In this document: positions 48,001-51,000 of the stretch, one piece after another
Layout: every line of letters begins with the position of its first letter
Position numbering within the stretch: position 1 is the first letter of the stretch
Origin: Escherichia coli O157:H7
GTDB taxonomy: Bacteria; Pseudomonadota; Gammaproteobacteria; Enterobacterales; Enterobacteriaceae
Direction: 5' to 3' (one strand)
DNA length: 64,000 nucleotides
Assembly (NCBI RefSeq): GCF_013167455.1
Contig: NZ_CP038328.1
Program-made: the position numbers

Positions 48001-51000
48001 CGTTTCAGTAAGGCTTCCGGTTTTTGCGTCGGGTGGTTTTCATATTCATCCATCAAATAACGCACGCGCGGAAAATCCCAGACGTTACCCGGTACTTTTT
48101 GATGATTGTAAGGCTGTGGAGGATTTTTGCGATAATCGATCAACGCGCGCTGCGATCCGGTTTTGGCTTCTACCAGAATAGCATCACCGTTGAATGTGTA
48201 GTTCTTTGCGTCTTTCACCATCATCAGGATGGGTTCGTACATGGAGCCGTAGTGTTTTTTCGCCTGCACTCCAGAACTGTCATATGACCAGACGATGCGA
48301 CTTTTGATGGTAAAAAGCTTGCGGCACTGGAGATCGATAAAGGGCATGTTTTCCGTACTGTTCATGATGTACATGCTGCCCTGCTTTTTCAGAACGCGGT
48401 GGCACTCTGCAATCACTTCTAACAGCCAGTCGATAAACAGATCTTCTTTCCAGGCTTCGATCAGACCATCAAAATTTTTACCGATGTTATACGGTGGGTC
48501 GGCAAAGATCAGATCGACGCTTTCAGTAGGTAGCTTTTTAAGTTCGGCAAGGGCATCACCGTGAATAATGGTCTTAGCTTCATTACCAAACCGGGTCGGT
48601 TCACATCCTGTTCTCATGGTCACTCCCTTTGTGACACCTATAAAAAAGGCGCTTCCCCATGCCGAGTAGCGCCTTTTAATCAAGCAATTAGCTAACCTGA
48701 ATTAGTTCATGCCGTATTTTTTCAATTTTTTACGCAGCGTACCACGGTTGATGCCCATCATCAGCGCAGCACGGGTCTGGTTACCACGGGTGTATTGCAT
48801 CACCATGTCCAACAGGGGCTGTTCTACTTCAGCCAGTACCAGCTCATAGAGGTCATTCACATCCTGACCATTCAGTTGAGCAAAATAGTTCTTCAGTGCC
48901 TGTTTAACCGAGTCACGCAGGGGTTTTTGGGTTACCTGATCCTGAGAGTTAACGGTAGAAACGGTCAGTACGTCAGAATTTACGCGTTGTTCGAACATAG
49001 TTCTGTCAGCTCTTTATTTCTGTTTACGCAAAATTTTCGAAGTATGCCTCCAACGCCTCCAGCTGTTCGCTGGCATCCTCAATGGCGTTGAATGTGCGCC
49101 GAAACTGGTCATTTGGAGCGTGTTCCTGGAGATACCAGGAAACGTGTTTACGTGCAATTCGGTACCCTTTTGCCGGACCATAAAAGTCATGCAGTTCCCG
49201 AACGTGCGCGCAAAGCAAGCGCTTAACCTCTGCCAAAGGCAGCGGGGGCAGCAACTCCCCAGTGTCCAGATAATGCTGGATTTCCCGAAAGATCCAGGGT
49301 CTTCCCTGAGCTGCGCGGCCTATCATCAGGGCATCCGCCCCTGTATAGTCGAGCACAGCTCTGGCTTTAAGCGGGTCAGTAATGTCGCCATTCGCGATAA
49401 CCGGAATGGAAACTTTCTGCTTAACTGCCCGAATACTGTCGTACTCAGCTTCTCCATTGAACAAACAGGCGCGTGTACGGCCATGAATGGTCAGAGCCTG
49501 AATGCCACAGTCTTCAGCCAGTTGGGCAATCTCTTCGCAGTTACGGTGTTCCGGTGCCCAGCCGGTGCGAATCTTCAGGGTAACAGGAACGTCCACTGCA
49601 TTGACGACCTCGGTAAGGATCGATTTAACGACATCCGGGTACTGCAAGAGGGCTGAACCTGCGAGCTTGCGATTCACTTTTTTAGCCGGGCAACCCATAT
49701 TGATATCAATAATCTGGGCACCGCTTTCCACGTTAATACGTGCTGCATCTGCCATTTCTTTCGGATCGCTACCAGCAATTTGCACGGTGCGAATACCGGG
49801 TTCATCAATGTGCACCATCCGTAAACGAGATTTGTCGCTTTCCCAAACCTGTGGGTTAGAAGACATCATCTCGGATACTGTCAATCCGGCTCCCATCTCG
49901 TAGCACAACGTCCGAAAAGGTCTGTCTGTAATGCCAGCCATGGGCGCTGCGATCAGGCGATTTCTGAGCTGATATTGTCCGATGCGCATGAGTTAAGAAA
50001 TGACCATACTGTGACTGCAAGGCGGCGTATATTACGCATTTTTTGCACGAGATGAAAGGCCAAACTTTGACCAATCCTCTGAGATGGATCAAAGAATTGC
50101 ATTTAAAATGAGCGTGGTGCGATAATTACTCATAAAAATCATCATATTAGAAAATAGTGACTAAAATTTACACTCAAAGAAATTTGAGTAAGTTCTCAAT
50201 TTTTCTTTATGAATGAAAATTTTGGCACGCAAATTTGCGTAAATAATCGGCAAATTTACGTGCCTTTTGTGAGCTTGCTCGCACTTCGCCCCGCGTCACC
50301 CTATGGCGATGCGAAGGTTAATTCTTACGACCGGTAATACGGCACCACTCTTCTTTTTCCACGACCGGGTCCAGAGCGAAGCTGTCGGCATAGGCTTCGC
50401 AAACGCTCTCCGCCTGGCTTGCCAGAATACCAGAAAGGCCCAGTAAGCCGCCTGAAACTGGCAGGACGCTAATTAACGGTGCCAGTTCACGTAATGGGCC
50501 TGCAAGGATGTTAGCGACCACCACGTCGGCTTTCATTTCTTCTGGCTGATCTTTCGGTAAGTAGAGTTCCAGACGGTCAGAAACGCCATTACGTTCGGCG
50601 TTATCGCGGCTGGCCTGAATCGCCTGCGGATCGATATCAATACCAATGGCTTTTGCTGCACCCAGTTTCAGCGCCGCGATCGCCAGAATGCCGGAACCAC
50701 AGCCAAAGTCGATGACTGTTTTACCGGTTAAATCGAGGCTGTCGAGCCATTGCAGGCACAGAGAGGTGGTTGGATGGGTACCCGTACCAAACGCCAGCCC
50801 TGGATCTAACATCACGTTGACGGCGTTTTCGTCCGGCACATCACGCCAGCTAGGGCAGATCCACAGTCGTTCGCCAAAGCGCATCGGGTGGAAATTATCC
50901 ATCCATTCGCGCTCCCAGTCTTTATCTTCTAGTTGTTCGATTTTATGCGCGAAGCCTGCGCCGAGCAGCGGATGGTTTTCCAGAATCGCCACCACGTCGT

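What the first reader, a model, noticed from the sequence alone, without database searches (positions are those of the whole stretch)
50224..50264. Nested palindromes upstream of the dusB-fis operon
GGCACGCAAATTTGCGT (50224-50240, containing the 14 bp perfect palindrome ACGCAAATTTGCGT) is followed about 10 bp later by CAAATTTACGTGCC (50251-50264), giving an extended inverted arrangement about 235-275 bp upstream of dusB on the transcribed (minus) strand and just 3-prime of prmA. The fis promoter region is known to carry multiple Fis/IHF sites for autoregulation; these AT-centred dyads are candidates for such sites or for a prmA terminator.
Basis: partly seen in the sequence, partly recalled or inferred. 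Interest (0 to 1): 0.3.

Follow-up and report, generated by a model that had tools for sequence, protein, structure and literature searches.

The report
prmA transcription terminator hairpin
This inverted repeat encodes the stem-loop at which the E. coli yhdT-panF-prmA messenger RNA ends, just upstream of the fis promoter region; it is an already mapped and annotated feature, so the finding is real but ordinary.

Summary
Positions 50224-50238 and 50250-50264 are 15-nt inverted arms, 14/15 complementary, with an 11-nt spacer. The perfect 14-bp palindrome lies at 50227-50240. About 0.04 such repeats are expected per 64 kb.

The window is E. coli, and the prmA-dusB spacer differs from K-12 MG1655 by one base. 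On the transcribed (minus) strand the repeat folds into a 15-bp RNA hairpin (-21.6 kcal/mol). It starts 54 nt after the prmA stop.

Published K-12 data place the prmA mRNA 3' end at this hairpin. SMRT-Cappable-seq puts it at 3410045 (window 50224) and labels it a known terminator. TRS on RNAtag-seq puts it at 3410050/51 (window 50219/18). So it is the prmA terminator, or at least the hairpin that forms the 3' end. The tail, AAAAUUUUC, is non-canonical.

The dyads themselves do not fit the Fis or IHF consensus. The spacer and the left arm do carry Fis-like 15-mers, at about -223 and -235 from fis P. The -223 site is conserved in position across Enterobacteriaceae, whereas the inverted repeat is confined to Escherichia.

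One arm is a sigma54 -24/-12 near-miss with one extra spacer base. It coincides with a weak in vitro RpoN gSELEX peak but no ChIP-seq peak.

Verdict: already known, low interest.

The parts
50224..50264 (-). Terminator / 3'-end hairpin of the yhdT-panF-prmA mRNA. The 5' arm is 50264-50250, the loop 50249-50239 and the 3' arm 50238-50224, giving 15 bp including one G.U.
   Evidence: Folds (-21.6 kcal/mol, z -6.4). Inverted repeat I2. The same hairpin is drawn (-23.1 kcal/mol) for the prmA primary 3' terminus in the TRS supplement.
50215..50223 (-). Tail AAAAUUUUC after the stem. Mapped RNA 3' ends are at 50224 (K-12 3410045), 50219 (3410050) and 50218 (3410051).
   Evidence: SMRT-Cappable-seq TTS 3410045, type 'terminator'. 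(TRS dominant positions 3410050 and 3410051, max U-tract 4). Coordinates converted with w = 50318 - (K12 - 3409951).
50265..50317 (-). Proximal prmA 3' UTR between the stop codon and the hairpin. It contains a first hairpin (50284-50316) with no T-run and a CRP-like site (50268-50283).
   Evidence: (I8). The TRS supplement gives a 3' UTR length of 100 nt.
50227..50240 (.). Perfect 14-bp DNA palindrome ACGCAAATTTGCGT, lying mostly in the 3' arm and running two bases into the loop. It was invariant in every E. coli sampled.
   Evidence: I5.
50237..50251 (.). Fis-like 15-mer GCCGATTATTTACGC (minus strand), centre 50244, about -223 from fis P +1. It occupies the hairpin loop.
   Evidence: One mismatch to GNNYRWWWWWYRNNC. 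A G...C 15-mer with an AT-rich centre sits at -223 to -225 in 8 of the 10 non-E. coli sequences aligned.
50249..50263 (.). Second Fis-like 15-mer GCACGTAAATTTGCC, centre 50256, about -235. It lies in the 5' arm.
   Evidence: 1 mismatch. Not conserved outside Escherichia.
50222..50238 (+). Sigma54 -24/-12 look-alike TTGGCACGCAAATTTGC pointing towards prmA (antisense). The -24 element is perfect but the spacing is GG-N11-GC instead of GG-N10-GC.
   Evidence: The PWM from 50 ChIP-seq sites scores it at 5.5 bits (true sites 8.0-21.1). Deleting one spacer base raises this to 17.7-18.8 bits. An RpoN holoenzyme+NtrC gSELEX peak lies at 3,408,032 in the old numbering, which I convert to about 3,410,010. 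There is no sigma54 ChIP-seq site here.

Best explanation
The 41-bp imperfect inverted repeat is the transcription terminator, or more cautiously the 3'-end-forming hairpin, of the yhdT-panF-prmA operon. RNA polymerase transcribing the minus strand passes the prmA stop codon. After 53 nt of 3' UTR it transcribes GGCACGUAAAUUUGC-(11 nt)-GCAAAUUUGCGUGCC, which folds into a 15-bp stem with a GC-rich base. It then transcribes AAAAUUUUC, and transcripts end 0-6 nt after the stem. About 90% of full-length reads that reach the hairpin stop at it or within 50 nt after it, and about 10% read through towards dusB-fis. The element therefore shields the fis promoter region from upstream transcription and gives the prmA mRNA a stable 3' end. 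What is shown: the hairpin, its position, and the mapped 3' ends. What is inferred: that release is intrinsic (my estimate about 0.6) rather than Rho-dependent termination followed by exonuclease trimming back to the hairpin. Independently, the same DNA lies in the distal part of the fis regulatory region. The loop holds a positionally conserved Fis-like site at about -223.
For: The sequence is E. coli. The spacer is present in 5425 of 5426 complete genomes and differs from K-12 by one base, outside the hairpin. The minus-strand hairpin folds at -21.6 to -23.1 kcal/mol with z about -6, and the mismatch is a G.U only on the transcribed strand. SMRT-Cappable-seq reports a transcript from TSS 3407349 to TTS 3410045 covering b3257|b3258|b3259, typed 'terminator', with the nearest known TTS at b3259, centre 3410035. 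Its read counts are 14 ending at the TTS, 52 ending within 50 bp downstream and 7 passing through. TRS lists a 'Primary' prmA 3' terminus at 3410050 and 3410051 in separate datasets and draws exactly this hairpin. In the same TRS table the thr attenuator ends 6 nt and the accC terminator 7 nt after their stems; prmA ends 5-6 nt after its stem. Gerganova et al. state that natural terminators flank the dusB-fis operon. Other Enterobacterales have a hairpin downstream of prmA, usually a canonical GC stem plus T-run, so a terminator is expected here. The flanks are poor Rho loading substrates. The 150 nt after the hairpin have 22 C and 18 G, and the 53-nt upstream UTR has more G than C.
Against: The tail is not a canonical U-tract: four A precede four U. 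The loop (11 nt) is long. The simple terminator scan did not call the element. Most SMRT-Cappable-seq reads end diffusely within 50 bp downstream rather than at one position, which would also fit Rho-dependent or otherwise imprecise termination. Adams et al. Term-seq lists no 3' end here, and the TERMITe tables do not either, possibly because expression is low. Natural variants break stem pairs without compensation: the common E. coli haplotype GGCACGTTAATTTGCC, strain 23CRST011, and E. albertii. Perfect pairing is therefore not strongly selected, and covariation gives no support.
Confidence: 0.85

Rival explanations
1. Rho-dependent, or otherwise imprecise, termination occurs further downstream in the AT-rich fis upstream region. 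3'-5' exonucleases then trim the RNA back to the hairpin, which acts only as a protective 3' cap.
For: There is no canonical U-tract, since AAAA follows the stem. Of the reads, 52 end within 50 bp downstream against 14 at the called TTS. Many 'Primary' termini in the TRS table are hairpins without U-tracts.
Against: The sequence after the hairpin is C-poor (22 C in 150 nt), and the upstream UTR has more G than C and is structured, so it is a poor rut site. The 3' end lies 5-6 nt after the stem, like bona fide intrinsic terminators in the same dataset. The Rho-inhibitor supplementary table of Adams et al. lists no site between K-12 3404518 and 3411124, which spans this position. A-rich runs downstream could produce oligo-dT mapping artefacts in SMRT-Cappable-seq (my inference).
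Confidence: 0.25
2. The inverted repeat exists mainly as a DNA-level protein-binding module of the fis regulatory region (distal Fis site(s), possibly with CRP nearby). RNA hairpin formation is incidental.
For: Fis-like 15-mers occur at about -223 and -235, within a run of nine such motifs in 0.37 kb against 2.0 per kb in the window. The -223 site is conserved in position across genera. A conserved CRP-like site abuts the element at 50268-50283. From memory, unverified here: Ball et al. 1992 footprinted six Fis sites, the most distal near -220 to -230.
Against: What is conserved is the 15-mer in the loop, not the arms. The inverted repeat is absent outside Escherichia. The palindrome itself does not fit the Fis core. 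RNA 3' ends map precisely to the hairpin, and Fis binding does not predict that.
Confidence: 0.1
3. It is a bidirectional terminator. The same hairpin, followed on the + strand by UUUUGUG, also stops antisense transcripts that start at divergent promoters in the fis upstream region before they enter prmA.
For: The + strand RNA folds at -18.2 kcal/mol, and there the stem is followed directly by UUUUGUG, a better U-tract than on the sense strand. The literature reports at least five start sites in the E. coli fis promoter region.
Against: No antisense 3' terminus is listed near K-12 3410000 in the TRS tables I saw. The stem carries a C.A mismatch on this strand. I examined no antisense TSS data.
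Confidence: 0.12
4. It is a sigma54 holoenzyme binding site: a cryptic or 'repressive' promoter, one in each arm.
For: TTGGCACGCAAATTTGC has a perfect -24 element and is almost identical to the pspA promoter TTGGCACGCAAATTGTA. gSELEX with RpoN holoenzyme plus NtrC gave a peak at 3,408,032 in the paper's older genome numbering. By my conversion this lies at the hairpin. Its intensity was 33% against a 30% cut-off.
Against: The spacing is GG-N11-GC, so the PWM score (5.5 bits) falls below every true site (at least 8.0). The site is not in the table of sites bound by holoenzyme alone. No in vivo ChIP-seq site is reported. The motif is absent in other genera. The better-scoring arm points antisense to both genes.
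Confidence: 0.04

Closest known systems
The annotated prmA (b3259) terminator of E. coli K-12, as recorded among known TTSs and re-detected by SMRT-Cappable-seq and TRS
   Same: It is the same element. The hairpin sequence is identical, and K-12 3410005-3410045 corresponds to window 50264-50224. The 3' ends map at 3410045 and 3410050/51.
   Different: Nothing material. The window strain (O157-like) differs from K-12 by one base elsewhere in the spacer, at 50304.
Canonical intrinsic terminators, e.g. the accC terminator and the thr attenuator in the same TRS table, or the GC hairpin plus T-run after prmA in Salmonella, Enterobacter and Mangrovibacter
   Same: A stable stem with a GC-rich base lies downstream of a stop codon, and RNA 3' ends fall 5-7 nt after the stem.
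   Different: The stem is longer (15 bp), its middle is AT-rich and its loop is 11 nt. The tail is A4U4C instead of a continuous U-tract. The simple terminator scan did not detect it.
Fis binding sites of the fis (dusB-fis) promoter region (Ball et al. 1992; Pratt et al. 1997; cited from memory)
   Same: G(-7)...C(+7) 15-mers with AT-rich centres occur at about -223 and -235. They continue a series at -44, -85, -103 and -145. The -223 site is conserved across genera.
   Different: Binding was not verified here.
pspA sigma54 promoter (TTGGCACGCAAATTGTA)
   Same: The first 14 bases are identical, including the -24 element.
   Different: There is one extra T before the GC of the -12 element (GG-N11-GC). 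It is oriented antisense, and no in vivo sigma54 occupancy is reported.
PurR / LacI-family 16-bp operator ACGCAAACGTTTGCGT
   Same: The half-sites ACGCAAA and TTTGCGT are identical (read directly from the sequence).
   Different: The central CG is missing, leaving 14 bp instead of 16, so the half-site spacing is wrong. A scan with the 16-mer found nothing at up to 4 mismatches.

Membership tests
Intrinsic (Rho-independent) terminator | Stable GC-rich stem-loop in the nascent RNA, on the transcribed strand, downstream of the stop codon | tested here: met
   15-bp stem at -21.6 kcal/mol, z -6.4. The stem base is GGCACG/CGUGCC. It starts 54 nt after the prmA stop.
Intrinsic (Rho-independent) terminator | U-rich tract immediately 3' of the stem | tested here: not met
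   The tail is AAAAUUUUC: four A come first, and the longest U run is 4. The consensus scan did not call the site.
Intrinsic (Rho-independent) terminator | RNA 3' ends map a few nucleotides after the stem in vivo | tested here: met
   Published data: TTS 3410045 (SMRT-Cappable-seq) and termini at 3410050/51 (TRS). These correspond to window 50224 and 50219/18.
Intrinsic (Rho-independent) terminator | Termination by RNA polymerase alone, insensitive to Rho inhibition | not testable with these tools
   This needs in vitro transcription or bicyclomycin 3'-end mapping. The Rho-inhibitor supplementary table of Adams et al. lists nothing here, but their Term-seq did not call this 3' end at all.
Fis binding site | 15-bp core GNNYRWWWWWYRNNC (G at -7, C at +7, AT-rich centre) | tested here: met
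   GCCGATTATTTACGC (50237-50251) and GCACGTAAATTTGCC (50249-50263) each have 1 mismatch. The 14-bp palindrome itself does not match.
Fis binding site | Demonstrated Fis occupancy (footprint, gel shift or ChIP) | not testable with these tools
   Ball 1992, Ninnemann 1992, Pratt 1997, Hengen 1997 and Nasser 2001/2002 are not held.
IHF binding site | WATCAANNNNTTR core | tested here: not met
   No match with up to 1 mismatch lies within 50224-50264. The nearest is 50212-50224 (1 mismatch), which overlaps only the last base of the feature. A better-placed match is at about -122.
Sigma54-dependent promoter | -24 GG and -12 GC elements with invariant GG-N10-GC spacing | tested here: not met
   The spacing is GG-N11-GC in both arms. 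The PWM score is 5.5 bits on the + arm and -0.8 on the - arm, against 8.0-21.1 for 50 ChIP-seq sites.
Sigma54-dependent promoter | Holoenzyme occupancy | tested here: inconclusive
   There is a weak in vitro gSELEX peak, seen only with NtrC, at 33% against a 30% cut-off. It is absent from the in vivo ChIP-seq list.
PurR / LacI-family operator | 16-bp dyad with a central CpG between the half-sites | tested here: not met
   The dyad is 14 bp and lacks the central CG. The 16-mer finds no match at up to 4 mismatches.
Known Rfam RNA family | Match reaching the family's gathering score | tested here: not met
   Only spurious miRNA-hairpin matches appeared, far below threshold (27 bits against 80).

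The most novel reading that the evidence does not exclude
The element may serve two roles. At the RNA level, the hairpin ends prmA transcripts. At the DNA level, its loop is the conserved distal Fis site of the fis regulatory region, and its arms can weakly bind sigma54 holoenzyme. Fis or holoenzyme occupancy, or supercoiling-driven cruciform extrusion of the AT-centred repeat, would then tune how much prmA transcription reads through into dusB-fis. It could also tune antisense termination. This would couple fis autoregulation to terminator efficiency.
Probability: 0.07. Interest if true: 0.45.

Novelty: already known. Interest (0 to 1): 0.1.

Why it matters
It matters little beyond correct annotation. 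The element marks the 3' boundary of the yhdT-panF-prmA transcription unit and insulates the supercoiling-sensitive fis promoter from upstream transcription. Two points are mildly useful. First, Escherichia has replaced the canonical GC-hairpin-plus-U-tract terminator found after prmA in most related genera with a longer, AT-centred hairpin and an A4U4 tail. This hairpin is built around a conserved site of the fis regulatory region. Second, roughly a quarter of complete E. coli genomes carry a haplotype with a stem mismatch. That haplotype could serve as a natural test of terminator strength and of read-through into dusB-fis.

Tried and rejected
- **Original footprinting and promoter papers.** Ball 1992, Ninnemann 1992, Pratt 1997, Hengen 1997, Gerganova 2015 JBC and Nasser 2001/2002 are not held. 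Fis site VI coordinates therefore rest on memory plus a motif scan.
- **Sequence strings in the literature.** Full-text search for the hairpin sequence strings found nothing.
- **Other 3'-end datasets.** Adams 2021 Term-seq tables and the TERMITe tables list no prmA 3' end. The Dar & Sorek 2018 supplements are not held.
- **Simple terminator scan.** It did not flag the hairpin because of its long loop and A-first tail. I reject this negative result in view of the experimental 3' ends.
- **Covariation.** The Escherichia variants seen break pairs without compensation, and other genera lack the repeat. No covariance model was built.
- **Motif matches.** A sigma54 promoter is rejected on spacing and PWM score. 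A PurR operator is rejected on spacing. An IHF site is rejected because no match lies within the feature. There is no NtrC box.
- **Rfam.** No family matches.
- **Repeat family or mobile element.** Rejected: the element is single-copy in E. coli genomes, with a median of 1 place per genome. The only other arm-like match in the window has 2 mismatches.
- **Chance.** Rejected.
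Full report
**Observation**

- GGCACGCAAATTTGCGT occupies 50224-50240.
- The perfect 14-bp palindrome ACGCAAATTTGCGT occupies 50227-50240.
- CAAATTTACGTGCC occupies 50251-50264.

The repeat finder describes the whole as two 15-nt arms (50224-50238 and 50250-50264), 93% complementary, with 11 nt between them. Only three loci in the 64-kb window carry an inverted repeat of this quality. First-order Markov simulations give 0.04 per window.

The flanking ORFs are all on the minus strand: prmA (50318-51199), dusB (49024-49989) and fis (48702-48998). 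The repeat therefore lies 54-94 nt after the prmA stop and 235-275 bp before the dusB ATG.

**Identity of the locus**

The 328-bp prmA-dusB spacer is found in 5425 of 5426 complete E. coli genomes. It differs from K-12 MG1655 at one base, window 50304, which is outside the repeat. K-12 literature therefore applies directly. The conversion is window = 50318 - (K-12 coordinate - 3409951).

The fis promoter -10 hexamer TAATAT is at 50034-50029. With 296 bp stated between the TSS and the prmA stop, +1 falls at about 50021. That places the repeat at about -203 to -243.

**What the transcribed strand does**

The minus-strand RNA folds into one uninterrupted 15-bp stem with an 11-nt loop, at -21.6 kcal/mol for the 41-mer (z = -6.4). 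The single imperfect position is a G.U pair. On the + strand the same position is a C.A mismatch, and the fold is weaker at -18.2 kcal/mol. The stem is followed by AAAAUUUUC on the sense strand and by UUUUGUG on the antisense strand.

**Experimental 3' ends**

Two independent published datasets place the end of the prmA transcript at this hairpin.
- **SMRT-Cappable-seq** (PMC6131387, Supplementary Data 1) lists a transcript from TSS 3407349 to TTS 3410045.
  - It covers b3257|b3258|b3259 and is typed 'terminator', with the nearest known TTS being b3259, centre 3410035.
  - Read counts are 154 at the TSS, 14 ending at the TTS, 52 ending within 50 bp downstream and 7 passing through, with a median read-through of 371 nt.
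  - K-12 3410045 corresponds to window 50224, the last base of the stem.
- **TRS** (PMC10687069) lists a 'Primary' 3' terminus for prmA.
  - The dominant position is 3410050 in LB RNAtag-seq and 3410051 in another dataset.
  - The 3' UTR is 100 nt, and the table draws exactly this hairpin at -23.1 kcal/mol with a maximum U-tract of 4.
  - These positions correspond to window 50219 and 50218, the first and second U of the tail, 5-6 nt after the stem.

I checked the table's coordinate convention against the thr attenuator, whose end falls 6 nt after its stem. The accC terminator ends 7 nt after its stem in the same table.

Gerganova et al. also say that natural terminators flank the dusB-fis operon. 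The element is thus the already known prmA terminator.

Negative results: the Adams et al. Term-seq tables and the TERMITe tables do not list this end. This may reflect low prmA expression.

**Mechanism**

What is shown is the hairpin and the 3' ends next to it. Whether release is intrinsic is inferred.

Points for intrinsic release:
- The stem base is GC-rich.
- The distance from stem to 3' end resembles that of bona fide intrinsic terminators in the same dataset.
- The tail consists entirely of A and U.
- Rho loading sequence is poor. The 150 nt downstream hold 22 C and 18 G, and the 53-nt upstream UTR has more G than C and is structured.

Points against:
- The tail begins with four A.
- The loop is long.
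- The consensus scan does not call the element.
- Most SMRT-Cappable-seq reads end diffusely within 50 bp downstream.

I rate intrinsic termination at about 0.6 and Rho-dependent termination followed by trimming at about 0.25.

**Comparative evidence**

Seventeen Enterobacterales loci were obtained through DusB, and more through the invariant Fis protein.
- Most genera have a canonical GC hairpin plus T-run directly after the prmA stop. Examples are Salmonella, Enterobacter, Superficieibacter, Mangrovibacter and Budvicia.
- E. coli and E. albertii lack that terminator and have the present hairpin instead.
- Citrobacter has another long hairpin without a T-run.

The inverted repeat is confined to Escherichia.

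Variation within Escherichia gives no covariation support.
- About 27% of complete E. coli genomes belong to a divergent 3'-UTR haplotype.
- Every sampled member of that haplotype has GGCACGTTAATTTGCC, a stem mismatch that raises the fold energy to -17.8 kcal/mol.
- Strain 23CRST011 and E. albertii carry other uncompensated changes.
- The 3' arm and the 14-bp palindrome were invariant in the E. coli sampled.

A scan with GNNYRWWWWWYRNNC, allowing 1 mismatch, finds nine hits in the 0.37-kb region against 2.0 per kb in the window. They lie at about -235, -223, -145, -103, -85, -44, -20, -11 and -9. The -223 hit, GCCGATTATTTACGC, is the hairpin loop. The -235 hit lies in the 5' arm.

The dyads themselves do not fit the Fis core. 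No IHF core lies within the feature. The nearest match, 50212-50224 with 1 mismatch, overlaps only its last base.

In the cross-genus alignment the loop and 3' arm align with a conserved block, TTTGCTyAyaAAAACAGCnTTTTATC. A G...C 15-mer with an AT-rich centre sits at -223 to -225 in 8 of the 10 non-E. coli sequences. The conserved unit is therefore this site, not the palindrome.

From memory, Ball et al. (1992) footprinted six Fis sites, with the most distal near -220 to -230. I could not verify this because the papers are not held. In Salmonella a minor promoter, Pfis-2, starts at -216, right next to the homologous block. The block could therefore be promoter-related instead of, or as well as, a Fis site.

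**Sigma54 look-alike**

The + strand arm TTGGCACGCAAATTTGC shares its first 14 bases with the pspA sigma54 promoter TTGGCACGCAAATTGTA.

I built a PWM from 50 ChIP-seq sites. It recovers the known yhdW site in the window at 18.1 bits but scores this arm at only 5.5 bits, against 8.0-21.1 for true sites. The reason is the spacing, GG-N11-GC. Deleting any one spacer base raises the score to 17.7-18.8 bits.

Shimada et al. report an RpoN-holoenzyme-plus-NtrC gSELEX peak in the prmA-dusB spacer at 3,408,032.
- That coordinate is in the older genome numbering. I convert it to about 3,410,010 using an offset of about 1,978 bp, which comes from my recollection of the older coordinates.
- By this conversion the peak lies at the hairpin. 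Its intensity is 33% against a 30% cut-off.
- It is not among the sites bound by holoenzyme alone.
- Bonocora et al. list no in vivo site there.

I treat this as an in vitro curiosity explained by the perfect -24 element, not as the function of the repeat.

**Other checks**

Rfam gives only spurious sub-threshold hairpin matches. The half-sites equal those of the ideal PurR operator, but the central CG is missing and the 16-mer finds no match. The element is single-copy in E. coli genomes.

**Verdict**

The feature is already known and of low interest.

Noticed in passing
window 50268-50283: A CRP-like site, TGTGAGCTTGCTCGCA, has 1 mismatch to TGTGA-N6-TCACA and is centred at about -254.5 from fis P. 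It lies inside the prmA 3' UTR, 3 bp from the hairpin. It aligns with a conserved dyad ATGAGA-N6-TCGCAT in Citrobacter, Klebsiella-like, Enterobacter, Superficieibacter and Salmonella. Enterobacter sp. Bisph1 has the symmetrical variant TTGCGA-N6-TCGCAA.
   Followed up: partly
window 50284-50316: A first hairpin, CTTCGC...GCGAAG, sits directly after the prmA stop. It has no T-run and no mapped 3' end. In most other genera this position holds a canonical GC hairpin plus T-run, so Escherichia appears to have lost the ancestral prmA terminator.
   Followed up: partly
window 50195-50300; loci L092-L096, L082, L091: The prmA 3' UTR is strongly polymorphic within E. coli. Of 5425 genomes, 1455 are only 90-95% identical over these 106 bp. 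Every sampled member carries an uncompensated A-to-T change in the 5' arm of the hairpin.
   Followed up: partly
window 41264-41280 (minus strand): CTGGCACTACTTTTGCT is the published sigma54 binding site upstream of yhdW (Bonocora OS34). It is the top PWM hit in the window at 18.1 bits.
   Followed up: no
window 36802-36851 and 20977-21010: These are the only two other long near-perfect inverted repeats in the window: AAAACAAAAGGCTCAGTCGGAAGACTGGGCCTTTTGTTTT and AATAAGGCGTCATTAGACGCCTTATT. Both look like terminators, bidirectional in shape.
   Followed up: no
loci L084, L087, L088, L089 (Salmonella), positions about 1349-2009: The prmA-dusB spacer is 660 bp instead of 328 bp. This matches the roughly 330-bp insertion described for Salmonella. 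A canonical terminator sits right after prmA.
   Followed up: no
window 50160-50260: AAATTT / AAAATTT(T) motifs recur at about 50164, 50180, 50216, 50231 and 50252, with small direct repeats such as AAATTTGAGTAA / AAATTTGCGTAA 51 bp apart. This is consistent with the intrinsic curvature reported for the fis upstream region.
   Followed up: no
E. coli genome search results: One copy of the prmA-dusB spacer is on a record classed as a plasmid, and one genome has two places.
   Followed up: no
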